A DNA stretch of 26,597 bases, taken from assembly GCA_900290305.1 (NCBI GenBank), contig OMOG01000745.1, positions 8,882 to 35,478 of the forward strand, given 5' to 3'. Position 1 is the first letter of the stretch, and each line of letters begins with the position of its first letter. Shown here in pieces: positions 9,386 through 24,588 of the stretch. The position numbers and the translations under genes are program-made. Source of the DNA: Candidatus Sulfopaludibacter sp. SbA4. Its GTDB lineage: Bacteria > Acidobacteriota > Terriglobia > Bryobacterales > Bryobacteraceae. The notes below the pieces were generated by a model. The model made no database searches. It was not told the origin of the DNA and was given only the letters and a program-made list of their open reading frames with translations.

Positions 9386-9540
9386 GGCACTCTCTAGAAA
9401 CCTCTGGACAACCCACTGAGCTGCTTGGTACTACAACAGCCTCAAGTCTTCGCAGCCTGCGACGATTTGGTGGGGCGAGCCCCGTTGGTTGCGGCTCTGC
9501 TGCACTGTGGGGCAGGCCATCGTTTTCTGTGGCCTGCCTC
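9386..9540 (+). repeat. copy 2 of the 53-nt conserved element (9430-9483) with trailing hairpins GAGCC..GGCTC and GGCAGGCCA-N10-TGGCCTGCC
   Basis: Same orientation as copy 1. Substitutions fall in the predicted loop (CCGCCTC vs CAGCCTG). The trailing hairpins differ in sequence but keep their position. Confidence 0.5.
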
Positions 9541-15224: not shown

Positions 15225-16238
15225 ATGGGTCTCACTCGAAGGCAGTATCTGGCGATGGCGGGCGCCGGTCTCTGCCGTGCCGCGGAGAATCCGCTCACGC
15301 GGCAATGGCAGCGGATCGCCTCCGGAACCGATGGCGTAGTAGGCGCGGCGGCCTTGCATCTGAATTCGGGGCGGCACGCCAGCCTGCACGGCGGCGAACG
15401 CTTTCCCCTGGCCAGCGTCTGCAAATTGCCGATCGCGATCGCCATTCTGGCGATGGCCGGCGAAGGCAAGCTGTCGCTCGACGACCAGATTGAGATCCCA
15501 TTGCAGGACGTCGTTCCGGGCGTGAGCATTGTGGCGGAGCGATGGCCCGGGCAGAAGCGCTTCCGCCTGAATGAACTGCTGGAATGGATGGTCGCGAAGA
15601 GCGATAACAGCGCGGTCGAGACGCTGTTCCGGATGAGTGGCGGCGCGGCGGGCATGGCCGCGCGGTTCCTCCAGTGGCAAGTCGAGGGGATGCGGGTGGA
15701 TCGCAGCGAACGCGAATGCGCTCTCGATTCCGCCGGGGTCAACCCGATTCCGCCGGTTTCGCAGTGGACTCCGGGAATGTTCGAAGAGCTGACCGCGAAG
15801 ATCGCACCTCAAGATAGGCGCCGGGCGATGCGCCGGTTTATGGCCGATCCCCGCGATACGGCCACACCGGATGGCACGGTCCATCTCTTGCAGAGGGCCT
15901 TCCGGGGTGAACTGCTGTCCGCGAGCTTGACGGGCCGGCTGGTGGAGATCCTGGAGGCGGCCACCACGGGAAGCGCGCGCATCAAAGGATTGCTTCCCGC
16001 AGGCACGGTGGTTGCGCATAAGACCGGCACCACCGCGACGTTCCTGAATTTGAACGGCGGAACCAACGATGTGGGCGTGATTACTCTTCCCAAAGGCGGC
16101 CAGTTGGCGATTGCGGTCTATGTAAAGGGAAGCACTCGCGACCTGGCCACGCGGGAGAAGATCATCGCCGGCATTGCGCGGTCGGCATTTCGACGCCTGG
16201 TCTTGACACCCCGCCCCTTTTCTGTAAAAATCAGATAG
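15225..16238 (+). CDS. class A beta-lactamase-family serine hydrolase with a Tat signal
   Basis: SxxK (ASVCK), SDN (KSDNSAVE) and KTG (HKTGTT) motifs are in the right order and spacing. The Tat motif is TRRQYLAMAGAG. Confidence 0.75.
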   Translation: MGLTRRQYLAMAGAGLCRAAENPLTRQWQRIASGTDGVVGAAALHLNSGRHASLHGGERFPLASVCKLPIAIAILAMAGEGKLSLDDQIEIPLQDVVPGVSIVAERWPGQKRFRLNELLEWMVAKSDNSAVETLFRMSGGAAGMAARFLQWQVEGMRVDRSERECALDSAGVNPIPPVSQWTPGMFEELTAKIAPQDRRRAMRRFMADPRDTATPDGTVHLLQRAFRGELLSASLTGRLVEILEAATTGSARIKGLLPAGTVVAHKTGTTATFLNLNGGTNDVGVITLPKGGQLAIAVYVKGSTRDLATREKIIAGIARSAFRRLVLTPRPFSVKIR

Positions 16239-16257
16239 GCGAATAAAAGGCGAAAAC
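16203..16257 (+). promoter_or_regulatory. imuA promoter: TTGACA(16203-08)-N17-AAAAAT with TG extension, then the direct repeat GGCGAATA-N3-GGCGAAAA abutting the ATG
   Basis: Perfect -35, extended -10 CTGTAAAAAT. The block is ~75% identical to the region upstream of dnaE2 (21389-21447). Confidence 0.6.
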
Positions 16258-16923
16258 ATGGCCACTGCTGTTCTCAAGCAACAGTTCGAATCGGTGCTGG
16301 GCGGCCACCTGGACTGGCAGTCCCGGCCGGCGCCGGAGCGGGTGCGGTCGGGCATTTCGGAGGTGGATGCGGCCACCGGGGGGCTGCCGCGCGGATGCCT
16401 GACGGAGATCTTCGGCCCGGCTTCTTCGGGACGCACCAGCCTGCTGGTGTCCATCCTGGCGGAGGCCACGGGTCGCGATGAGGTCTGCGCGCTGGTGGAT
16501 GCGGAAGATGCCTTCGACCCCACGTCGGCGGCCGCGGCCGGAGTGCGTTTGGAGCGGCTGCTTTGGGTACGCGCCGCGCACAACGCCGAGCACGCGCTCA
16601 AAGCGGCCGACCTGCTGATCCAGGGCGGCGGTTTCGGAATGGTGGCCATGGATCTCGGCGACACGCGCCCCGAAACCGCGCGCCGCATTTCGCTGACTTC
16701 CTGGTTTCGCCTGCGGCGCGCGGTGGAGAACACGCCCACCGTGCTGGTGGCGGTGGCGCGGCAATCCAACGCCAAGACCTGCGCTTCCTTGATGCTGGAG
16801 TGCAGGCGCGAGCGCATCGCGTGGAGCGGGGAAAAGCGGCTGCTGCGCGCCATCGAGGTGCGGGTGGCGTCGACTCATCGGAGCAAGGTATGTTCGCCTG
16901 TCTTCACGGCCAAGGCAATCTGA
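16258..16923 (+). CDS. imuA: ImuA (RecA-fold SulA-like) component of the imuA-imuB-dnaE2 mutagenesis cassette
   Basis: GGLPRGCLTEIFGPASSGRTSLLVSILAEAT is a degenerate Walker-A-like RecA-fold core. The position is immediately upstream of imuB with a 34-nt overlap. Confidence 0.7.
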   Translation: MATAVLKQQFESVLGGHLDWQSRPAPERVRSGISEVDAATGGLPRGCLTEIFGPASSGRTSLLVSILAEATGRDEVCALVDAEDAFDPTSAAAAGVRLERLLWVRAAHNAEHALKAADLLIQGGGFGMVAMDLGDTRPETARRISLTSWFRLRRAVENTPTVLVAVARQSNAKTCASLMLECRRERIAWSGEKRLLRAIEVRVASTHRSKVCSPVFTAKAI

Positions 16924-18155
16924 CCGCGCTGGCCTTCGAGTTCTCGCCCACCGTGGAGCGGACCGCGGAGCCCTTGGCAGGGTGCCAGGAAGAAACCGTG
17001 ACGCTCGACGCCTCGGGGCTCGACCGGTTGTTCGGGCTTCCACAGGATGTGGCGGCGGCGCTGGCGCGTCGGGCCGCCGAAATCCGGGTGAAGGCCAACA
17101 TTGCGCTCGCGGCAAATCCCGATGCGGCCATCTGCGCGGCGCGCGGTTTCGCGGGCGTCAGCGTGATCCCGCAGGGCGACGAAGGCAAGTTCCTCGGCAC
17201 GCTGCCGCTCGCGGTGCTGGCCCCATCGCCCGAATTGCAGGAGACGCTGGAGCGATGGGGCATCCGCCGGTTCCAGGAGCTGGCGGGCTTGCCCCCGCTG
17301 GGGATCGCCGAGCGGCTCGGTCCCGAGGGATTGCGTCTGCGCGAGCTGGCGCGCGGCGAGGCGGAGCGCAAGCTGGTGCCGCTCGACCCGCCGCTGCGTT
17401 TCGAAGACGAGCTCGAGATGGAGTATCCGGTGGAGCTGCTGGAGCCGCTGGCGTTCGTGCTCTCACGGCTGCTGAACGGCCTGGCCACGCGCTTGGCCAC
17501 GCGCGGCCTGGCCACCGACGAACTGCGCCTGCGATTGAAGCTCGAAAACCGCGCGGCCCACGAGCGGACGCTGCGCCTGCCCGTGCCTTCGACCGATACC
17601 AAGGCATTTCTGAAGCTCTGGCAGCTCGACCTGTCGGCGAATCCTCCGCCAGCCCCCGTGGTGCACGTCTGGATGGGAGTGAACCCGGTAAAGCCGCAGG
17701 CAGCGCAGGGCGGCCTGTTCGTGCTGGCGAAGCCCGAGCCGGTGAAGCTGGAGCTGACGCTGGCGCGCATCCGGTCGATCGTGGGGGAAGGGCGAGCGGG
17801 CACTCCGGAGCTGCTCGACACCCACCGGCCGGGCGCGTTCCGGATGGCATCAGTGGCACAGGCATTCTTGCCTGTGTCTAGAAGGCCCTCTTTCCAGGTC
17901 CGCCTGTCCCTCCGCATCTTCCGTCCGCCGCGCGCCGCGCGAGTGGCCATCGCATCCGGGCAGCCCAGCTTCATCGACGCCCAAGGCATCCGCGGCAAGG
18001 TGTTAGAACTCGCCGGACCGTGGCGAACGTCCGGCGACTGGTGGACTACCGACCCGTGGTCGCGCGACGAATGGGACATCGCACTGTCGGACGGGGCGCT
18101 GTATCGGCTGTACTGCGACCCGCGCGGGTGGTTTTTGGAGGGGAGTTACGACTGA
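16890..18155 (+). CDS. imuB: ImuB, catalytically inactive Y-family polymerase-like protein (start at MFACLHGQGNL)
   Basis: An N-terminal Y-family fold (MFACLHG.. lacking the catalytic acidic triad context) and a conserved C-terminal ...GPWRTSGDWW...ALYRLYCDPRGWFLEGSYD tail. The upstream 109 codons of the ORF overlap imuA. Confidence 0.75.
   Translation: MFACLHGQGNLTALAFEFSPTVERTAEPLAGCQEETVTLDASGLDRLFGLPQDVAAALARRAAEIRVKANIALAANPDAAICAARGFAGVSVIPQGDEGKFLGTLPLAVLAPSPELQETLERWGIRRFQELAGLPPLGIAERLGPEGLRLRELARGEAERKLVPLDPPLRFEDELEMEYPVELLEPLAFVLSRLLNGLATRLATRGLATDELRLRLKLENRAAHERTLRLPVPSTDTKAFLKLWQLDLSANPPPAPVVHVWMGVNPVKPQAAQGGLFVLAKPEPVKLELTLARIRSIVGEGRAGTPELLDTHRPGAFRMASVAQAFLPVSRRPSFQVRLSLRIFRPPRAARVAIASGQPSFIDAQGIRGKVLELAGPWRTSGDWWTTDPWSRDEWDIALSDGALYRLYCDPRGWFLEGSYD
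17855..17878. repeat. inverted copy of the REP-like palindrome (GGCACAGGCATTCTTGCCTGTGTC) embedded in-frame in imuB
   Basis: A 22-nt exact match to the reverse complement of 4916-4939. It encodes VAQAFLPV within ImuB. Confidence 0.6.
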
Positions 18156-18285
18156 GGGCAATTTCAGATATGCTAAAGTCAGTTGTCTCTTAGTGGGTTG
18201 TCCAGCCGAACATGGAGTTGGTGTATCCTCTAGATCATGCGGGTGACGGCCAGGAGACGCGGGCCGCTCCAGCCTGGCGCCGCTG

Positions 18286-19071
18286 ATGCTCTTACATTTG
18301 ACGGCCGTTCAGATGCATAAAACCATGTCCTCCGGCCGAAACAAACCGGTCGTATTTGGCTGCATTGATGCCCAAGGCAACATGGCGGGCGATTACGTCG
18401 TGAAACTGTCCGGAGCGATGGAAACGCGGGCGCGGGGACCCGCCAGCGAGTTGATCGCTTCCTGCCTGGCAGGGCATTTTGGCCTGCAGTGTCCGAAGCC
18501 GGCCGTCGTCCAGTTGCATCCAGACTTGGTCAAATGGCTGGTGGCACAACGTTCTGACCTGGCGCCAATTATTCGTGCCAGTACAGGCTTCAATTTCGGT
18601 ACTGAGTTCCTGACAGACGGGGCAATCTGGCCGCCGGGCCGGCCTCTGCCGGAGACGATGTTCCTTACCGCGACCCACATATTTGCATTTGACGCCCTGA
18701 TCGACAATGACGATCGGCGGCGCGCGAATTCCAACGTCCTCGTCCGCGGCGATGATATCTTTGTCATAGACCATGAATCCGCTTTTGCATTCCTCTACCT
18801 GGTCCATACCCGCGTAGCGCCCTGGGAGGTCCGGCAGCGAACATCCCTCCGCGAGCATGTTTTCTTCTATCAACTCCGGAAGCAGCCCATCGACCTCACC
18901 ATGTTCACCGCGAGACTCGCAGGTCTCGGAGACGTTGAACTGGACCAAATGATCCAACAGATGCCAACCGAGTGGCGGCATGAAGATCTGGGCCGTGTTT
19001 CCGCACACTTAATGGCTGTGCGAGACCACGCGGCCGAATTTGAAAGGCAAGTTTTGGAGATATTGGCATGA
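18286..19071 (+). CDS. HipA-like (PI3/4-kinase-fold) putative Ser/Thr kinase, 261 aa
   Basis: FDALIDNDDRRRANSNVLV...DDIFVIDHESAF parallels the HipA catalytic and Mg-binding motifs (FNxLIGNxDDHxKNxSxL...LAPAYD). It is a small stand-alone kinase in a lower-GC islet. Confidence 0.5.
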   Translation: MLLHLTAVQMHKTMSSGRNKPVVFGCIDAQGNMAGDYVVKLSGAMETRARGPASELIASCLAGHFGLQCPKPAVVQLHPDLVKWLVAQRSDLAPIIRASTGFNFGTEFLTDGAIWPPGRPLPETMFLTATHIFAFDALIDNDDRRRANSNVLVRGDDIFVIDHESAFAFLYLVHTRVAPWEVRQRTSLREHVFFYQLRKQPIDLTMFTARLAGLGDVELDQMIQQMPTEWRHEDLGRVSAHLMAVRDHAAEFERQVLEILA

Positions 19072-19937
19072 TCCCATATAGCTTCAGTGTGCTTCGGTAT
19101 ATTCACGATGGCGTGACGGCGGAGTTCGTCAATGTCGGCGTGGCCGTATATGCAGGTGACCCGCCCTACCTGAAGGCAAAATGCACGATCCAATATGGCC
19201 GGATCACCCGCCTGTTCGATCGGATTGACGGCGATCGATTCAAGCAACTGGTCCGGTACATCGAGGAGGAGGTCACAAACCTCGGAGAAAAGCTCCGTCA
19301 ACGGACTCTCCCGTTTGCCGAGCGCGGCGCCACGATCCACGCGTTGCTCAAGGAGGTGTTGCCGCCTGACGACAGTGCGATTCAGTTTTCTCCAGCGGGA
19401 TTGGGTGTGACCGCGGACCTGGATGCAACCTTAGCCGAGTTGTACGAGCGGTATGTCGAGCGGTATTCCGGGGAGCAGGAGGTGCCGAGCCGCAGCAATG
19501 ATGAAGTCTGGCGTGTCTTCCGGCGGCCCCTGGAACGCCGCAACGTCATGGCGCACCTTACGCCGAAGAAAATTGTCGCTCCGGACTATGAATATGAGTT
19601 CCGTGCCGCGTGGAAGAATGAGGACTGGCATGTGTTTGAGCCCGTGTCATTCGACCTGGTAGAGCCGAACTCCATGCTGGAAAAGGCCAACCGATGGGTG
19701 GGGCGTTCGGCCAGCCTCGTCGAAAGCCCAGAGCAATTTCGCATTCATTTGCTCATCGGGGCGCCTCAGGACCCGCGCTTGTCGGGCGCCTTTACAAAGA
19801 CTCAACATATTCTGGGCAAGATGAGTGGTAACCCTGAGATAGTTTTGGAAAACCAGGCTGAAGAATTCGCGGCGGAACTCGAACGCCAAATCGGTGTCCA
19901 TGGCGGAGACGCACACGATCTGTTCGATCTGCGCTGA
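19068..19937 (+). CDS. DUF3037-like domain protein (289 aa), translationally coupled to the HipA-like kinase
   Basis: The N-terminus MIPYSFSVLRYIHDGVTAEFVNVGVAVYAGD matches the characteristic DUF3037 opening (..Y..LRY.P....EFVNIGV.L). There is an ATGA overlap with the upstream gene and a GGAGA SD. Confidence 0.6.
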   Translation: MIPYSFSVLRYIHDGVTAEFVNVGVAVYAGDPPYLKAKCTIQYGRITRLFDRIDGDRFKQLVRYIEEEVTNLGEKLRQRTLPFAERGATIHALLKEVLPPDDSAIQFSPAGLGVTADLDATLAELYERYVERYSGEQEVPSRSNDEVWRVFRRPLERRNVMAHLTPKKIVAPDYEYEFRAAWKNEDWHVFEPVSFDLVEPNSMLEKANRWVGRSASLVESPEQFRIHLLIGAPQDPRLSGAFTKTQHILGKMSGNPEIVLENQAEEFAAELERQIGVHGGDAHDLFDLR

Positions 19938-19963
19938 CAAGTCCTGGGCGCTTCGGTCACTGC

Positions 19964-19999
19964 TTGACGACGCTGTCGATACGTATCATAATACGTATC
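19964..19999 (+). promoter_or_regulatory. prlF-yhaV promoter/operator: TTGACG-N17-CATAAT overlapped by the palindrome GATACGTAT-cata-ATACGTATC (19978-19999)
   Basis: 9-bp perfect arms with a 4-nt spacer over the -10. This is the typical autoregulatory operator geometry for AbrB-fold antitoxins. Confidence 0.55.
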
Positions 20000-20012
20000 A
20001 GAGAGCAAGCCC

Positions 20013-20360
20013 ATGCCGACATTCTCCGGCTCCATCACGACAACGGGAAAATCGGAGGCCATCCGCCTGGACAAAGCTCTTTTCAGGCTTCATCCGGAGT
20101 TCCGTCAAAAGGCCAAGGTGCGTGCTCAAGTGATCGCTCCCGGTCACGCCCTGATTTCCGTGATGGAGGAAGGCGCCCCGGAAGTCCAGGAAGAGGATCC
20201 CGTAGTCACCGCATTTCTCGCATTCCTCGAAAAGGACATGAAAGCGCACCCCAAACGCATGGCCGCACTTTCGAAGCGATCCATCGCTCGCGCCACCCGG
20301 TTGACCAGGCGGGTGAAGGTGACGGACGACGAACGTCTTCCGGATGACATTTCGTTCTAG
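20013..20360 (+). CDS. prlF: type II antitoxin PrlF (SohA) family, swapped-hairpin AbrB-like
   Basis: The N-terminal beta-hairpin reads TTTGKSEAIRLDKAL. The C-terminal segment EEDPVVTAFLAFLEKDMKAHPKR parallels E. coli PrlF HPDPVLGAFLDFLAADIQNNPQ. An acidic tail follows. Confidence 0.75.
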   Translation: MPTFSGSITTTGKSEAIRLDKALFRLHPEFRQKAKVRAQVIAPGHALISVMEEGAPEVQEEDPVVTAFLAFLEKDMKAHPKRMAALSKRSIARATRLTRRVKVTDDERLPDDISF

Positions 20361-20368
20361 TTCTCACC

Positions 20369-20848
20369 ATGCGCCCGGCGCCCTTAACAGTGCGGAACGG
20401 GTGGAAGCTGTATGCCCACCCGGCCTTCAGCCAAAGATTGGAAGTCCTGATCGGGACCGCGGAGGCGCTCGAAAAGCGACGGCCCCAAAGCTATCGCGAT
20501 CACCCCAGCGCCAAACTGCTCAAACGCACCCTGGACCTGATTCTGGTTGAAATTCCACGGGATCCGAACGCGGCGGAATTCCAGCTTGGCAATACGCTGG
20601 GACCGGCGTATCGCCATTGGCGGCGCGCGAAGTTTCTCGGTCGATTTCGACTCTTCTTCCGGTTCAGCAGCACTCACAAGGCCATTGTGTACGCCTGGGT
20701 GAATGACGAAACCACGCTTCGGAAGGAAGGGTCACAGAGCGATCCTTACGCAGTTTTTATCAGGCGTCTTCAAACAGGCAACCCACCGGACCATTGGGAT
20801 GTCTTACTTCGGGAAGCGGATGCCGCCGACTTCAACGACGGAGACTAA
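20369..20848 (+). CDS. yhaV: type II toxin YhaV (ribosome-dependent RNase) family
   Basis: NGWKLYAHPAF ... HWRRAKFLGRFRLFFRFSSTHKAIVYAWVNDETTLR aligns almost motif-for-motif with E. coli YhaV (NGWALYAHPCF ... HWSRAKFFNGRYRLFFRYSSRHKTIVYAWVNDENTLR). Confidence 0.8.
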   Translation: MRPAPLTVRNGWKLYAHPAFSQRLEVLIGTAEALEKRRPQSYRDHPSAKLLKRTLDLILVEIPRDPNAAEFQLGNTLGPAYRHWRRAKFLGRFRLFFRFSSTHKAIVYAWVNDETTLRKEGSQSDPYAVFIRRLQTGNPPDHWDVLLREADAADFNDGD

Positions 20849-20849
20849 C

Positions 20850-21152
20850 TTACGGCAGATCTAGCGCCAGTTTGATGGCCTGTTCAATCTTCTCAAGAGC
20901 GGCGTGGCTCAGCGCGCCCAGCGGTGGATAGACAGCCTTGGACTTTTCGATCGTCGTCACCTGGTCGCACTTGACCCACGAATCGCGATCCAGGCCGCCT
21001 TCGCCTACTAGAAGATTCGGGCGCAGACGGAAGGCTTTGTGCTCTGCGGTGGAGATCGGCACCACGCAAACATCCAGGGAGTGGCGGTTCAGCGCGTCGG
21101 ACGAGATGACCAGGGCCTGCGGGGCGGGAGCGCCAACTCTCTTCACCGGCAT
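20850..21152 (-). CDS. MazF/PemK-family toxin-like protein, apparently lacking the usual N-terminal beta-strand
   Basis: PQALVISSDALNRHSLDVCVVPISTAEHKAFRLRPNLLVGEGGLDRDSWVKCDQVTTIEKSKA parallels the PemK/MazF core (RPVLIV...VVPITS...DSVVLCDQIRTID). An in-frame stop lies 12 codons upstream of the ATG, so the GEIWLVDFDP strand is absent. Confidence 0.6.
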   Translation of the reverse strand: MPVKRVGAPAPQALVISSDALNRHSLDVCVVPISTAEHKAFRLRPNLLVGEGGLDRDSWVKCDQVTTIEKSKAVYPPLGALSHAALEKIEQAIKLALDLP

Positions 21153-21337
21153 GACCCGCGCGTCCAGGACTCTCGGGCCGCGGACTCAAAAGCGCGGCGC
21201 TCCGCACGATCCTCGTGGTTGGCGGCAAAGAAGCCGGCAATTTCCCGCTCCAGGGGCGCTCGCTTTTCCTGATCCAAGGCAAAACGCAGCAGCCGGTTCA
21301 CCCGCTCGCTCTTCGACAAGTTTCCGTGGGGCTTCAC
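21143..21337 (-). CDS. putative antitoxin partner of the MazF-like gene (64 aa from a GTG; start uncertain)
   Basis: A small ORF overlapping the toxin start by 10 nt (ATGCCGGTGA arrangement), at the usual antitoxin position. It has no confident family motif. Confidence 0.35.
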   Translation of the reverse strand: MKPHGNLSKSERVNRLLRFALDQEKRAPLEREIAGFFAANHEDRAERRAFESAARESWTRGSCR

Positions 21338-21388
21338 TACAGCGAGAATAGCAAAGCGGGGGACCGCGAGGCCCCCATCTGGAAGCCG

Positions 21389-21447
21389 TTGACACCCCCA
21401 ACCCCATGCTGTATAAATTAAGTACAGGCGAATAAATGGCGAATATC
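21389..21447 (+). promoter_or_regulatory. dnaE2 promoter: TTGACA(21389-94)-N17-TATAAA with CTGTATAAAT, then GGCGAATA-N3-GGCGAATA abutting the ATG at 21448
   Basis: A near-duplicate of the imuA upstream block, including the direct repeat placed one helical turn apart over the RBS. It also contains the palindrome CTGTA-N9-TACAG. Confidence 0.6.
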
Positions 21448-24400
21448 ATGTTTATCGAGCTGCACGCCCGCTCCGCATTCAGCTTCCTCGAAGGCGCCTG
21501 TGTGCCCGAGGAACTGGCCGGCGCCTGCGCGGAATTCGGCATGCCTGCCATGGCCATCATGGACCGCAACGGCGTCTACGGCGCGCCGCGTTTCCACATG
21601 GCTGCCAGGAAGGCCGGCATCCGCGCGCACATCGGATCGGAGATCACCTGCACCAACGGCGTCTGTTATCCCCTGCTGGTGGAAACGCGAGAGGGCTATC
21701 AGAACCTCTGCCGCCTGGTCACCCGCATGAAGCTGCGCGCCAAAAAAGGGGAAGGCGCGGTCACGCTGGAAGAGATCGCGGAATTCGCGCGCGGCCTCGT
21801 CTGCATCACGCGCCATCCCGATGAGCGGCTGCTCGACATGTTCGGCCGCGGCAACGTCTACGCCGAGCTGCAGCGCCACTACCATCGCGAAGAGGAGGCG
21901 CGGAACCAGGCCATCGTGGACCGCGCGCGGCGGCTCGGCATCCCGCTGGTGGCCACCAACGGCGCCGCCTACGCCACGCCCGCGCAGCGTGAGCTGCTGG
22001 ATGTCTTTACCTGCGTCCGCAATCACGTGACGCTCGCCGATGCCGGCCGGCTGCTGGAGCGCAACTCGGAGCGCCACGTCAAAACTCCCGCCGAGATGGC
22101 GCGCCTGTTCGCCGATCTTCCCGAAGCCATCGCCAACACGCGAGAGATCTCCTCGCGGCTCCAGTTCACGCTGGCCGACCTGGGCTACGAGTTCCCGCGC
22201 TATCCCGTCCCCGAGGGCCACACGCAGATGTCCTTCCTGCGTCAGCTCGTGGACGAGGGAGCGCGTTTCCGCTACCAGCCGTATCACGAACGCGCGCGCC
22301 GGCAGATCGAGCGCGAGCTGGCGCTCATCGAGAAGCTGAACCTGCCCGGGTATTTTCTGATCGTGTGGGACATCGTGCGCTTCTGCCGCGAGAACGACAT
22401 CCTGTCGCAGGGCCGCGGCTCGGCCGCCAACAGCGCGGTGTGCTACGCGCTGCGCATCACCGCCGTCGACCCCGTGGGCATGGACCTGCTCTTCGAACGC
22501 TTCCTTTCCGAGGAGCGCGGCGAGTGGCCCGACATCGATATCGACCTGCCCAGCGGCGACAAACGCGAGCGCGCCATCCAGTACGTCTACCAGCGCTTCG
22601 GTAAGCTGGGCGCGGCCATGACCGCCAACGTCATCACCTACCGCGGCCGTTCCGCGGCGCGCGAGGTGGGCAAGGCGCTGGGCTTCGAGATCACCACGCT
22701 CGAGCGGCTTTCGAGCCTGGTGCGGACGTGGGAATGGAAGGACCCCAAGGACACCAACGAACGCCAGTTCCGCGAGGCTGGCTTCGACCTGAGCCATCCG
22801 CGCGTGCGCAAATTTTTCGAGCTGTACCGCATGGCGCAGGATCTGCCGCGCCACCTCGGACAGCACTCGGGCGGCATGGTGATCTGCCAGGGGGCGCTCG
22901 ATTCGGTGGTGCCGCTCGAACCGGCCACCATGCCCGGCCGCGTGGTGGTGCAGTGGGACAAGGAAGACTGCGCCGATATGGGGATCATCAAGGTGGACCT
23001 GCTGGGGCTGGGGATGATGGCGGTGATCGAGGACACCCTCAAGCTGATTCCCCAGACATACGGAGAAGAGGTGGACCTGGCGCACCTGCCGCCCGACGAC
23101 CCCGCGGTATTCCAGGCGCTGCAGAAGGCCGACACCATTGGCATGTTCCAGGTGGAGAGCCGCGCGCAGATGTCGTCGCTGCCGCGCATGCGGCCGCAGC
23201 GGTTCTACGACATCGTGGTGCAGGTAGCGATCATCCGGCCGGGGCCGATCGTGGGCAAGATGGTGCATCCTTATTTGAACCGGCGGCAGGGGCGGGAAGC
23301 GCCGGACTGCCTGCACCCCTCGCTCGAGCCGGTGCTCCGGCGGACGCTGGGAGTGCCGCTGTTCCAGGAGCAGTTGCTGCGCATGGCGATGATCGCGGCG
23401 GGATTCACGGGCGGGCAGGCCGAGGAGCTGCGCCGCGCCATGGGCTTCAAGCGCTCGGAAAAACGCATGGCCGAGATCGAAGTGAAGCTGCGCGAGGGCA
23501 TGGATCGCAACGGCATTCGGGGCAAGGCGCAGGAGGATATCGTGCGCTCCATCACCGCGTTCGCGCTGTACGGATTTCCCGAGTCGCACGCCGCGAGCTT
23601 CGCGCTGCTGGCGTATGCCAGCGCGTATCTGAAGTGCCATTACCTGGCGGCGTTCACCTGCGCCCTGCTGAACAACCAGCCGATGGGTTTTTATGCGCCG
23701 GCCATTCTGATCAAGGACGCGCAGCGGCACGGCCTGCGCGTGCTGCCGGTGGATGTGGCGCGCTCGGAGTGGGAGTGCACGGTGGAGGGGGATTACTCGA
23801 CGCGGAGCCGCAGAGGGCGCGGAGAAAAGCGCGGAGAAGAACACGAGAGAACGGAGGGGGCAGAGAGCGCGGAGGATCCTTCCACGTTGCGCCTTAGGCT
23901 CGGGCTGCAGTATGCCAGGGGGCTGCGGGAGGAAGCGGGGCGCGCGATCGTGCGGGCGCGGCCGTTCAGCAGCGTGGACGACCTGGCCTTGCGCGTGCCG
24001 GAACTGCGCAAGGACGAAATCAACCGGCTGGCGGAAATCGGCGCGCTCAATTCCCTGGAGGCCCATCGCCGCGATGCCCTCTGGCAGGCGCAGCGCGCGA
24101 TCCTGCCGGTGGGCCCGCTGCTCGAGCCGCTGGAAGAAACGGGCCAGCCGTCGCCGCTCTCTCCCATGACCACGGACGAGCGGCTATCGGCCGATTACCG
24201 CGGCACCGGCCTGACCATCGGCAAGCACCCCATGGCCTATCGCCGAGCCGAAATGAACGCGCTCAAAGTGACTCGCGCCATCGACCTGGAACGGGTTCCG
24301 GACGGCCGCCTGGTGCGTATCGCGGGGTCGGTAATCGTGCGGCAGCGTCCCGGCACGGCCAACGGATTCGTCTTCCTGAGCATGGAGGACGAGACCGGCA

Positions 24401-24588
24401 TCATGAACGCGATCGTCACGCCGGCCACCTTCGACCGCTACAAGTTCCAGGTATTGGGCGAGCGGTTTTTGTTGATTGATGGCGTGCTGCAAAATCTGGA
24501 TGGCGTGATCTCGGTGAAGGCCGGGCGGATCGAAGGCCTGCGCGCGGGGGCAGTGGCGGCGTCGTATTGTACAAATTATCTGTTGTAG
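21448..24588 (+). CDS. dnaE2: error-prone DNA polymerase DnaE2 (ImuC); an alternative ATG lies 12 nt upstream at 21436
   Basis: The PHP domain opening MFIELHARSAFSFLEGACVPEEL parallels M.YAELHC.SNFSFLRGAS. The pol III alpha catalytic core (GRGSAANSAVCYALRITAVDP, PDIDIDL) and an OB-fold C-terminus are present. The start was chosen by alignment of the promoter/RBS block with imuA. Confidence 0.9.
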   Translation: MFIELHARSAFSFLEGACVPEELAGACAEFGMPAMAIMDRNGVYGAPRFHMAARKAGIRAHIGSEITCTNGVCYPLLVETREGYQNLCRLVTRMKLRAKKGEGAVTLEEIAEFARGLVCITRHPDERLLDMFGRGNVYAELQRHYHREEEARNQAIVDRARRLGIPLVATNGAAYATPAQRELLDVFTCVRNHVTLADAGRLLERNSERHVKTPAEMARLFADLPEAIANTREISSRLQFTLADLGYEFPRYPVPEGHTQMSFLRQLVDEGARFRYQPYHERARRQIERELALIEKLNLPGYFLIVWDIVRFCRENDILSQGRGSAANSAVCYALRITAVDPVGMDLLFERFLSEERGEWPDIDIDLPSGDKRERAIQYVYQRFGKLGAAMTANVITYRGRSAAREVGKALGFEITTLERLSSLVRTWEWKDPKDTNERQFREAGFDLSHPRVRKFFELYRMAQDLPRHLGQHSGGMVICQGALDSVVPLEPATMPGRVVVQWDKEDCADMGIIKVDLLGLGMMAVIEDTLKLIPQTYGEEVDLAHLPPDDPAVFQALQKADTIGMFQVESRAQMSSLPRMRPQRFYDIVVQVAIIRPGPIVGKMVHPYLNRRQGREAPDCLHPSLEPVLRRTLGVPLFQEQLLRMAMIAAGFTGGQAEELRRAMGFKRSEKRMAEIEVKLREGMDRNGIRGKAQEDIVRSITAFALYGFPESHAASFALLAYASAYLKCHYLAAFTCALLNNQPMGFYAPAILIKDAQRHGLRVLPVDVARSEWECTVEGDYSTRSRRGRGEKRGEEHERTEGAESAEDPSTLRLRLGLQYARGLREEAGRAIVRARPFSSVDDLALRVPELRKDEINRLAEIGALNSLEAHRRDALWQAQRAILPVGPLLEPLEETGQPSPLSPMTTDERLSADYRGTGLTIGKHPMAYRRAEMNALKVTRAIDLERVPDGRLVRIAGSVIVRQRPGTANGFVFLSMEDETGIMNAIVTPATFDRYKFQVLGERFLLIDGVLQNLDGVISVKAGRIEGLRAGAVAASYCTNYLL

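What the first reader, a model, noticed from the sequence alone, without database searches (positions are those of the whole stretch)
16203..16257. Duplicated ~58-bp promoter/RBS block with a GGCGAAWA-N3-GGCGAAWA direct repeat upstream of both imuA and dnaE2
Seen: 16203-16260 (TTGACACCCCGCCCC..CTGTAAAAAT..AGGCGAATAAAAGGCGAAAACATG) and 21389-21450 (TTGACACCCCCAACCCC..CTGTATAAAT..AGGCGAATAAATGGCGAATATCATG) share the -35, the extended -10, and a tandem GGCGAAWA direct repeat spaced 11 nt (one helical turn) that overlaps the ribosome-binding region and ends at the start codon. No canonical LexA box (CTGT-N8-ACAG, GAAC-N4-GTTC, GTTC-N7-GTTC) is present at either site. The dnaE2 copy does contain CTGTA-N9-TACAG. 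Inference: the two halves of the split mutasome are co-regulated by the same, possibly non-LexA, factor or by a cis-acting RNA element in the very short leader. The duplication also supports the 21448 start for dnaE2.
Basis: seen in the sequence. Interest (0 to 1): 0.6.

Follow-up and report, generated by a model that had tools for sequence, protein, structure and literature searches.

The report
LexA SOS operators before imuA, dnaE2
The repeated GGCGAA motif in front of both halves of this soil bacterium's error-prone DNA-repair genes is almost certainly the binding site of the ordinary DNA-damage repressor LexA, in the direct-repeat form used across the Acidobacteria, so it is a normal SOS control element rather than a new regulator or an RNA switch.

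Summary
Two blocks (16203-16257 and 21389-21447) each carry TTGACA, a TG-extended -10 and GGCGAATAAA[A/T]GGCGAA. These are the only two sites in the window that score with a matrix built from relatives.

The interpretation needs correcting: the repeat is a DNA operator, most likely for LexA.
- The box is almost invariant before imuA in 78 of 79 related metagenome contigs. It sits at a fixed distance after the -10 but a variable distance from the ATG.
- Among 120 exact genome hits (about 8 of them chance hits outside the phylum), it lies in the promoters of lexA (7), recA, Pol IV, splB-like radical-SAM, DinB-family, helicase, imuA and dnaE2 genes.
- At many of these genes it forms the 17-nt -35/-10 spacer, in either orientation.
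- All five lexA loci chosen by protein similarity alone also carry it.
- Read on the other strand (nTTCGCyTTTTATTCGCC) it is a variant of the GTTC-N7-GTTC direct-repeat LexA box of Alphaproteobacteria and Acidobacterium.

The ancestral imuA-imuB-dnaE2 operon was split here by about 3.3 kb of toxin-antitoxin genes. A relic of the old dnaE2 start survives at 18148-18159, and dnaE2 has its own LexA-controlled promoter. That promoter is not a recent copy of the local imuA promoter. This is an ordinary SOS operator and a new member of a known kind.

The parts
16203..16208 (+). -35 hexamer TTGACA of the imuA-imuB promoter
   Evidence: Consensus scan. TTGACA is conserved at this position in related imuA promoters.
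16223..16231 (+). TG-extended -10 (TGTAAAAAT) of the imuA-imuB promoter
   Evidence: One search gives a 17-nt spacer with TG before the hexamer. Columns -18 to -10 are conserved in 72 distinct related sites.
16238..16254 (+). LexA operator (SOS box) GGCGAATAAAAGGCGAA, covering roughly +1 to +17 of the predicted transcript
   Evidence: Exact pattern hit and 38.0 bits with the relatives' matrix. The same box is found at 78 of 79 related imuA loci and in lexA and other SOS promoters.
16258..16923 (+). imuA (RecA-fold accessory protein, 221 aa)
   Evidence: Pfam RecA domain. NCBIfam ImuA_translesion and ImuA' match below their cut-offs. Synteny with imuB-dnaE2 in relatives.
16890..18155 (+). imuB (Y-family-like, 421 aa), overlapping the end of imuA
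   Evidence: Gene call in identical contigs. Weak Pol IV-family similarity below cut-off, as expected for ImuB.
18148..18159 (+). Relic of the ancestral dnaE2 start (ACGACTGAGGGC; relatives have ATGACTGA(A/G)GGC overlapping the imuB stop). This is the left breakpoint of the operon split.
   Evidence: Sister contigs L007 and L050 diverge from the window at the same base.
18160..21388 (.). Intervening DNA with three toxin-antitoxin-like pairs: HipA_2 + DUF3037 (18286-19937), PrlF + YhaV (20013-20848), and a PemK-like gene plus a 58-aa partner on the - strand (20850-21319)
   Evidence: Pfam, precomputed Pfam on the identical contig L001. Absent from relatives with a contiguous operon.
21389..21394 (+). 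-35 hexamer TTGACA of the dnaE2 promoter
   Evidence: Read directly in the sequence and aligned with the imuA block.
21410..21418 (+). TG-extended -10 (TGTATAAAT) of the dnaE2 promoter
   Evidence: This stretch is identical to the -10 region of the L060 imuA promoter.
21427..21443 (+). LexA operator (SOS box) GGCGAATAAATGGCGAA
   Evidence: Exact pattern hit and 36.9 bits. Other lineages also have a box before dnaE2: L030 and L117.
21448..24588 (+). dnaE2 (error-prone DNA polymerase, 1046 aa)
   Evidence: NCBIfam NF004225 'error-prone DNA polymerase', 1202 bits against a cut-off of 939. Pfam PHP, DNA_pol3_alpha, finger, HHH_6 and OB domains. The N-terminus aligns with relatives from residue 1-2.

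Best explanation
Each block is a sigma-70-type promoter (TTGACA, 17-18 nt spacer, TG-extended -10) followed by a 17-bp LexA operator made of two direct GCGAA repeats 11 bp apart. On the other strand the operator reads TTCGC-N6-TTCGC.

**Proposed mechanism**
- In undamaged cells a LexA dimer sits on the box, which covers the transcription start. This blocks RNA polymerase at both imuA-imuB and dnaE2.
- After DNA damage, RecA-stimulated self-cleavage of LexA frees both promoters. The three mutasome components are then made together.

**History of the locus**
- The ancestral arrangement was one imuA-imuB-dnaE2 operon with a single box.
- In this lineage dnaE2 was cut off after its fourth codon, and toxin-antitoxin genes now lie in between.
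- dnaE2 is driven by its own promoter and operator of the same family type.

**What is shown and what is inferred**
- Shown: the sequence anatomy, the conservation, the set of genes that carry the box, and its presence in lexA promoters.
- Inferred: that LexA is the protein that binds, the transcription start points, and damage induction.
For: **Conservation at imuA**
- AGGCGAAtAAAArGCGAA is exact at 78 of the 79 related metagenome loci that retain imuA upstream sequence (80 loci fetched; ImuA 73-97% identical). The 79th has one mismatch.
- The box begins 6-9 nt after the -10 and lies 0-10 nt from the ATG. The upstream flanks are unrelated.

**Specificity**
- In 520 kb of those contigs, GCGAA-N6-GCGAA occurs 88 times. 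Every occurrence is in front of imuA or dnaE2.

**Genes carrying the box in genomes**
- 120 exact hits in genome assemblies are almost all Acidobacteriota: Bryobacterales, Terriglobales, Vicinamibacterales, Pyrinomonadaceae, Holophagaceae and Acidiferrales.
- The hits lie next to imuA (30), splB-like radical-SAM genes (16), lexA (7), Pol IV (6), a RecA-like 234-aa gene (5), DinB-superfamily genes (5), a DEAD/HRQ1 helicase (3), dnaE2 (1) and recA (1). Sources.

**DNA-level geometry**
- At lexA, Pol IV, DinB-family and many splB-like genes, the 17-mer is exactly the spacer between TTGACA and TAnAAT, in either orientation.

**Unbiased test on lexA**
- Five lexA loci were chosen only by protein similarity. 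All five carry TTCGC-N6-TTCGC in the -35/-10 spacer, one of them with a single mismatch.

**The repressor is a normal LexA**
- These proteins have LexA_DNA_bind and Peptidase_S24 domains, with invariant Ala-Gly, Ser and Lys.

**The window's own order**
- MAGs labelled Bryobacterales or Bryobacteraceae carry the box at imuA, splB-like, DinB-family and recA genes.

**Resemblance to a proven LexA box**
- Caulobacter LexA boxes such as GTTCGCATTATGTTC and GTTCCACTTTTGTTC (imuA) share the 11-bp period, the TTC cores and the T-rich 3' spacer.

**Operon split**
- In relatives dnaE2 overlaps the imuB stop (ATGACTGA) and has no box of its own.
- The window keeps the relic ACGACTGAGGGC.
Against: - No binding or expression data exist for this organism or for any close relative.
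- I could not obtain a lexA gene from a genome explicitly labelled Bryobacterales. The link between LexA and the box in the window's own order therefore rests on other Acidobacteriota orders, plus the SOS-type gene set that carries the box in Bryobacterales.
- The exact GTTC tetranucleotide of the published direct-repeat LexA box is not conserved. The 5' G is present in only about 8% of second half-sites.
- The near-invariance of 15-16 of the 18 positions at imuA is stricter than many operators show. It could hide a second constraint.
Confidence: 0.88

Rival explanations
1. The box is the operator of a different, non-LexA damage-response repressor (for example an XRE/ImmA-type or WYL-type regulator) that also controls lexA.
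For: - The exact canonical LexA strings are absent.
- LexA-independent damage regulons that include dnaE2 and imuA exist in other phyla: DdiA in Myxococcus (PMC12288472) and PafBC in mycobacteria (PMC8682763), both found.
- No binding data exist for this box.
Against: - The box is in the core promoter of all 12 lexA genes examined. This is the signature of LexA autoregulation.
- It has the architecture (direct repeat, 11-bp period, TTC cores, T-rich spacer) of the proven alphaproteobacterial LexA box.
- No candidate regulator gene is conserved next to imuA. The upstream neighbours differ between loci.
Confidence: 0.07
2. The repeat acts at the RNA level, as a leader or ribosome-binding element (or a protein- or sRNA-binding site) of the very short 5' UTR.
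For: - At imuA and dnaE2 the box is always on the coding strand and is predicted to be the first about 17 nt of the mRNA.
- It is purine- and A-rich, and AAAGG partly matches a Shine-Dalgarno sequence.
- Its near-invariance is unusual for an operator.
Against: - The same 17-mer lies in untranscribed -35/-10 spacers and on the non-coding strand at lexA, Pol IV, RecA-like and DinB-family genes.
- The distance to the ATG varies from 0 to about 60 nt while the distance to the -10 is fixed.
- 43% of related sites have AGCGAA rather than GGCGAA in the second unit, which weakens any Shine-Dalgarno match.
- Folding z-scores are +0.23 and +1.52, and there is no Rfam match.
- A secondary effect on translation of imuA or dnaE2 is not excluded.
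Confidence: 0.03
3. The two blocks are simply a recent tandem or dispersed duplication, or a mobile-element remnant, with no regulatory meaning beyond providing a promoter.
For: - The two blocks are about 80% identical over about 58 nt.
- The dnaE2 copy sits at the edge of inserted toxin-antitoxin DNA.
Against: - The dnaE2 block is no closer to the local imuA block (78%) than to the median foreign imuA block (78%).
- The conserved part is exactly the promoter hexamers plus the box. That box recurs at SOS genes across a phylum.
Confidence: 0.02

Closest known systems
Direct-repeat LexA box of Alphaproteobacteria (GTTC-N7-GTTC / GAAC-N7-GAAC), e.g. Caulobacter crescentus imuA GTTCCACTTTTGTTC
   Same: - Two direct, not inverted, repeats with an 11-bp period.
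- A TTC core in each repeat and a T-rich 3' part of the spacer.
- Located in or just after the core promoter.
- The regulon includes lexA, recA, imuA-imuB-dnaE2 and a radical-SAM (splB-like) gene (PMC12700426 supplement; PMC4951493).
   Different: - Here the base 5' of TTC is not conserved: A in 81% of second half-sites, G in about 8%.
- The two or three bases 3' of TTC (GC, GCC) are invariant here. In Caulobacter the 5' G is invariant and GC follows TTC only sometimes.
- The spacer here is almost fixed (yTTTTA).
Acidobacterium capsulatum LexA box (Mazon et al. 2006, Microbiology 152:1109)
   Same: - Same phylum.
- As I recall the abstract, LexA of A. capsulatum binds the direct repeat GTTCN7GTTC in vitro. 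The title and citation were confirmed.
   Different: - I could not read the paper, so a base-by-base comparison is not possible.
- The consensus found here across several classes is TTCGC-N6-TTCGC(C), not GTTC-N7-GTTC.
- That work reported no LexA control of recA (PMC4951493). A Bryobacterales MAG here has a perfect box at recA (L192).
LexA-regulated imuA-imuB-dnaE2 mutagenesis cassette (Erill et al. 2006, NAR 34:66; core SOS regulon per PMC4951493)
   Same: The same three genes, LexA-box controlled, are part of the minimal SOS core together with lexA and recA.
   Different: - In the window the cassette is split by about 3.3 kb of toxin-antitoxin genes, and dnaE2 has its own LexA-controlled promoter.
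- Most relatives keep the single operon.
Balneolaeota direct-repeat LexA motif (TTACACATATTTTWTACATA; PMC7739468)
   Same: Another LexA that reads a direct repeat. Its regulon also includes translesion polymerases, a helicase and a radical-SAM protein.
   Different: The half-site sequence is unrelated and the motif is longer.

Membership tests
LexA operator (SOS box) | Present in the promoter of lexA itself (autoregulation) | tested here: met
   - Seven lexA loci came from the pattern scan: L115, L132, L147, L158, L166, L167 and L181.
- Five more lexA loci were picked by protein similarity only: L207, L208, L209/210, L211-213 and L214/215.
- All twelve have TTCGC-N6-TTCGC as the -35/-10 spacer; one has one mismatch.
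- None of these genomes is labelled Bryobacterales.
LexA operator (SOS box) | Recurs at promoters of several DNA-repair or translesion genes (a regulon), not at random genes | tested here: met
   - 76 of 120 exact genome hits lie next to imuA, splB-like, lexA, Pol IV, RecA-like, DinB-family, helicase, dnaE2, recA or STAS-domain genes. All but the two STAS hits are DNA-repair or translesion families.
- In 520 kb of related contigs all 88 occurrences are at imuA or dnaE2.
LexA operator (SOS box) | Overlaps core promoter elements or the transcription start, so that bound repressor blocks RNA polymerase | tested here: met
   - At imuA and dnaE2 the box starts 6-8 nt after the predicted -10.
- Elsewhere it fills the -35/-10 spacer.
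- The promoters are predicted from sequence, not mapped.
LexA operator (SOS box) | A LexA protein with an N-terminal winged-helix DNA-binding domain and an S24 self-cleavage domain (Ala-Gly site, Ser/Lys dyad) is encoded in the same genomes | tested here: met
   - Pfam PF01726 plus PF00717.
- Invariant A110-G111, S144 and K182 in alignment A2.
LexA operator (SOS box) | Bound by LexA and derepressed after RecA-dependent LexA cleavage | not testable with these tools
   Needs EMSA, ChIP and expression after DNA damage.
GTTC-N7-GTTC direct-repeat LexA box (Alphaproteobacteria / A. capsulatum) | Two direct repeats with an 11-bp period | tested here: met
   GCGAA-N6-GCGAA is the same as TTCGC-N6-TTCGC. 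The period of 11 is invariant in all sites.
GTTC-N7-GTTC direct-repeat LexA box (Alphaproteobacteria / A. capsulatum) | Half-site tetranucleotide GTTC | tested here: not met
   - TTC is invariant, but the 5' base is A 81%, C 11% and G 8% at one half-site and variable at the other.
- Instead GC(C) 3' of TTC is invariant.
- The window sites read TTTC-N7-ATTC and ATTC-N7-ATTC.
- It therefore works like this family but is a variant, not an exact member.
imuA-imuB-dnaE2 mutagenesis cassette | DnaE2-type error-prone polymerase, Y-family-like ImuB and RecA-fold ImuA | tested here: met
   - DnaE2 scores above the NCBIfam cut-off (NF004225, 1202 bits against 939).
- ImuA and ImuB match their families only below cut-off, but they have the expected folds and synteny.
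imuA-imuB-dnaE2 mutagenesis cassette | The three genes are transcribed as one operon | tested here: not met
   - In the window, dnaE2 lies 3.3 kb downstream of imuB, behind three toxin-antitoxin pairs (one on the opposite strand), and has its own promoter.
- Relatives have overlapping imuB and dnaE2.
cis-regulatory RNA leader | Conserved secondary structure, or a match to a described RNA family, on the transcribed strand only | tested here: not met
   - No Rfam hit.
- Folding z-scores are +0.23 and +1.52.
- The motif occurs on both strands and in untranscribed spacers.

The most novel reading that the evidence does not exclude
TTCGC-N6-TTCGC(C) is the native LexA box of the whole phylum Acidobacteriota: Terriglobia including Bryobacterales, Vicinamibacteria, Blastocatellia and Holophagae, with some instances in Eremiobacterota MAGs.

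If so, the direct-repeat mode of LexA binding is old in this phylum. It would not be a one-off lateral import of an alphaproteobacterial lexA into Acidobacterium capsulatum, and recA would belong to the regulon in at least some orders. The unusually strict conservation at imuA might also reflect a second role of the box as the first 17 nt of the mRNA.
Probability: 0.45. Interest if true: 0.45.

Novelty: new member of a known kind. Interest (0 to 1): 0.3.

Why it matters
- It shows that the apparently LexA-box-free mutagenesis genes of this uncultured peat-soil acidobacterium are under ordinary SOS control.
- It shows how that control was kept when the operon was broken: the detached polymerase gene has its own copy of the promoter-operator type.
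- The consensus GGCGAAtAAAArGCGAA gives a practical, very specific probe for annotating SOS regulons in Acidobacteriota genomes and metagenomes. For that phylum the only LexA-box study I found is the 2006 work on one species.
- It does not reveal a new regulator or mechanism.

Tried and rejected
- **Rfam.** Searched the whole window and, permissively, the imuA leader. Only a tRNA and a chance-level sRNA hit came back.
- **RNA folding of both leaders.** No structure beyond shuffled sequence.
- **E. coli LexA tblastn** against the first 86 loci. No lexA gene lies near imuA.
- **CTGTA-N9-TACAG as a second, palindromic operator.** Rejected. The left arm is the TG-extended -10, and the right arm is present in only about a third of related promoters.
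- **GGCGAA as a Shine-Dalgarno sequence.** Rejected because of the variable spacing to the ATG and the frequent AGCGAA.
- **Recent local duplication.** Rejected by the identity comparison.
- **Attempts to get a lexA promoter from a genome labelled Bryobacterales.** Two protein searches and a cluster look-up returned only LexA proteins labelled Terriglobia, Acidobacteria or similar, or unlabelled.
- **Papers not held.** Mazon et al. 2006 and Erill et al. 2006 could not be read. What I say about their content beyond titles rests on memory and on citing papers.
Full report
**1. The observation**

The window (63.6% G+C) carries two look-alike blocks.
- Before the RecA-fold gene at 16258: TTGACA (16203-16208), TGTAAAAAT (16223-16231) and GGCGAATAAAAGGCGAA (16238-16254).
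- Before the polymerase gene at 21448: TTGACA (21389-21394), TGTATAAAT (21410-21418) and GGCGAATAAATGGCGAA (21427-21443). Sources.

The exact repeat pattern occurs nowhere else in the window. A weight matrix made from relatives scores these two sites at 38.0 and 36.9 bits, and nothing else exceeds 8 bits on either strand.

**2. The genes**

| Coordinates | Gene | Evidence |
|---|---|---|
| 16258-16923 | RecA-fold ImuA | |
| 16890-18155 | Y-family-like ImuB | |
| 21448-24588 | DnaE2, NCBIfam 'error-prone DNA polymerase', 1202 bits against a cut-off of 939 | |
| 18286-19937 | HipA_2 + DUF3037 | |
| 20013-20848 | PrlF + YhaV | |
| 20850-21319 (- strand) | PemK-like gene + 58-aa partner | |

Identical contigs come from peatland metagenomes. 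The nearest named ImuA homologues are from Bryobacteraceae MAGs, phylum Acidobacteriota.

**3. Conservation at imuA**

Eighty metagenome loci encoding ImuA relatives (73-97% identity) were fetched.
- Of the 79 that retain upstream sequence, 78 have GCGAA-N6-GCGAA exactly and one has a single mismatch.
- Consensus: TTGACA, a C-rich spacer, cTGTAAAAAT, aTAGTnnA, then GGCGAAtAAAArGCGAA.
- Beyond the bases fixed by the search, G(-1) and AAA(+6 to +8) are invariant.
- The box begins 6-9 nt after the -10, so it should cover roughly +1 to +17. It lies 0-10 nt from the ATG.
- In the 520 kb fetched, all 88 occurrences of the core are in front of imuA or dnaE2. About one occurrence is expected by chance.

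A fixed distance to the promoter and a variable distance to the start codon point to a promoter-anchored element, not a ribosome-binding one.

**4. The box is a multi-gene DNA operator**

A scan of one genome per species for GGCGAATAAAARGCGAA stopped at 120 hits (titles). About eight hits are scattered chance matches in unrelated phyla. Nearly all the rest are Acidobacteriota of several classes, plus a few Eremiobacterota MAGs.

| Gene next to the box | Hits |
|---|---|
| imuA | 30 |
| splB-like radical-SAM | 16 |
| lexA | 7 |
| Pol IV (IMS domains) | 6 |
| RecA/Rad51-like, 234 aa | 5 |
| DinB-superfamily | 5 |
| DEAD/HRQ1 helicase | 3 |
| STAS-domain | 2 |
| dnaE2 alone | 1 |
| recA | 1 |

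Sources.

At lexA, Pol IV, the RecA-like gene, the DinB-family genes and many splB-like genes, the 17-mer is exactly the spacer between a TTGACA-like -35 and a TAnAAT -10. An example is gTTGACA-TTCGCCTTTTATTCGCC-aatact at a lexA gene. The box appears in one orientation at some gene families and the opposite orientation at others. An element that works in untranscribed spacers and on either strand acts on DNA.

**5. The factor is most likely LexA**

The seven lexA hits were found through the box itself, so I ran an unbiased test. LexA proteins were collected by sequence similarity, and five of them were traced to their contigs. All five promoters carry TTCGC-N6-TTCGC as the -35/-10 spacer, one with a single mismatch.

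The proteins are standard LexA. They have LexA_DNA_bind plus Peptidase_S24 domains and invariant Ala-Gly, Ser and Lys.

Autoregulation of lexA, together with a regulon of recA, translesion polymerases, a radical-SAM splB-like gene and a helicase, is the composition described for SOS networks in other phyla (PMC4951493; PMC7739468).

MAGs labelled Bryobacterales or Bryobacteraceae carry the box at four gene types:
- imuA: L119, L121, L179, L184
- splB-like: L112, L137, L160, L169, L197 by similarity search; L193 read by eye from the start of its coding sequence
- DinB-family: L187
- recA: L192

I did not obtain a lexA promoter from a genome labelled Bryobacterales. That is the main remaining gap.

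**6. Relation to known boxes**

Read on the other strand, the consensus is nTTCGCyTTTTATTCGCC. Caulobacter LexA boxes listed in PMC12700426 include GTTCCACTTTTGTTC (imuA), GTTCGCAAGATGTTC (recA) and GTTCGCATTATGTTC.
- Shared: the direct-repeat layout, the 11-bp period, the TTC cores and a T-rich 3' spacer.
- Different: the invariant 5' G of the alphaproteobacterial half-site is not conserved here, while GC(C) 3' of TTC is invariant here.

A direct-repeat LexA box has been reported for Acidobacterium capsulatum (Mazon et al. 2006). The citation was confirmed. The motif GTTCN7GTTC is from my memory of the abstract.

But the repeat itself is a variant of the direct-repeat LexA box.

**7. The split operon**

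In most relatives dnaE2 starts at an ATG that overlaps the imuB stop (ATGACTGA..., MTEGYVELH), or follows after a short gap without a box.

The window retains ACGACTGAGGGC at 18148-18159. The ATG is lost through a change that is synonymous in imuB, and unrelated DNA follows. Sister contigs L007 and L050 (90% identical over imuA-imuB) keep ATGACTGAGGGC. They diverge at the same base into different DNA, with no dnaE2 in the next 4.7 kb. dnaE2 was therefore detached after codon 4 in the common ancestor of this small clade.

Homology to other DnaE2 proteins resumes at F-I-E-L-H, directly after the ATG at 21448. This supports that start rather than the ATG at 21436 inside the operator.

The dnaE2 block is 78% identical to the window's imuA block. 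That is the same as its median identity to imuA blocks of other lineages, and it is 89% identical to that of L060. The resemblance therefore reflects a shared promoter-operator type, an old copy or a foreign one, not a recent local duplication.

A separate box before dnaE2 has arisen elsewhere too:
- L030, in a 95-nt imuB-dnaE2 spacer.
- L117, a Vicinamibacteria dnaE2 standing alone.

**8. Rivals**

- A non-LexA repressor cannot be excluded without binding data. It is disfavoured by the box in every lexA promoter examined and by the likeness to a proven LexA box.
- An RNA or RBS role as the primary function is contradicted by orientation, position, spacing, lack of structure and the absence of an Rfam match. 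A secondary effect of the A-rich, unstructured leader on translation remains possible.

**9. Verdict**

These are two ordinary SOS operators in front of a split imuAB / dnaE2 mutagenesis cassette, so this is a new member of a known kind. The useful by-product is a sharp, phylum-wide consensus for the Acidobacteriota LexA box. There is also a hint that recA is LexA-controlled in Bryobacterales, contrary to what is reported for A. capsulatum (PMC4951493).

Noticed in passing
window 18148-18159 (and L007 4283-4294): Relic of the ancestral dnaE2 start codon that overlapped the imuB stop. The window has ACGACTGAGGGC where relatives have ATGACTGA(A/G)GGC. Sister contigs L007 and L050 break at the same base but continue into different DNA, so the operon split predates them.
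   Followed up: yes
window 18286-21319: Three toxin-antitoxin-like gene pairs are packed between imuB and dnaE2: HipA_2 + DUF3037, PrlF + YhaV, and a PemK-like gene with a 58-aa partner on the opposite strand.
   Followed up: partly
L192 (Bryobacterales MAG CBDEGI010000004.1, locus chunk 352001-360000): recA has a perfect box (TTCGCTTTTTATTCGCC) ending 5 nt upstream of a TACAAT -10. Loss of LexA control of recA has been reported for Acidobacteria (PMC4951493, citing Mazon 2006).
   Followed up: partly
L030 3111-3127; L117 (Vicinamibacteria): Other lineages also have a separate LexA box directly before dnaE2. In L030 it lies in a 95-nt imuB-dnaE2 spacer. In L117 it precedes a dnaE2 that stands alone.
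   Followed up: partly
L089, L124, L142 (splB-like promoters): Some splB-like radical-SAM promoters carry two boxes: one in the -35/-10 spacer and a second, less perfect copy about 20-30 nt upstream of the -35. L142 comes from an Eremiobacterota ('Candidatus Cybelea') MAG.
   Followed up: no
window 15225-16238: The class-A beta-lactamase-like ORF reads through the whole imuA promoter. Its stop codon (TAG, 16236-16238) overlaps the first G of the LexA box. In contig L002 a 1-nt deletion makes the ORF end 52 nt before imuA instead.
   Followed up: no
window 5867-5920 and 9430-9483: A 54-nt sequence (ACTACAACAG..TCAAGTCTTCGC.GCCT.CGACGATTTGGTGGGGCG) occurs twice at 89% identity. The second copy is intergenic, upstream of the NHL-repeat gene on the + strand. 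The first lies inside the listed 270-aa DksA-like ORF (5245-6057, - strand) and is intergenic only if that ORF really starts further downstream, which I did not check. Function unknown.
   Followed up: no
window 4877-4942: Two tandem 32-nt units, each holding the palindrome ACAGGCAAGAATGCCTGT, overlap the 5' end of the hfq ORF as listed (4442-4927, - strand) and extend upstream of it. The Hfq domain begins at residue 68, so the real start may lie further in.
   Followed up: no
window 2724-2797 (-): A tRNA gene (Rfam RF00005, 64.8 bits).
   Followed up: no
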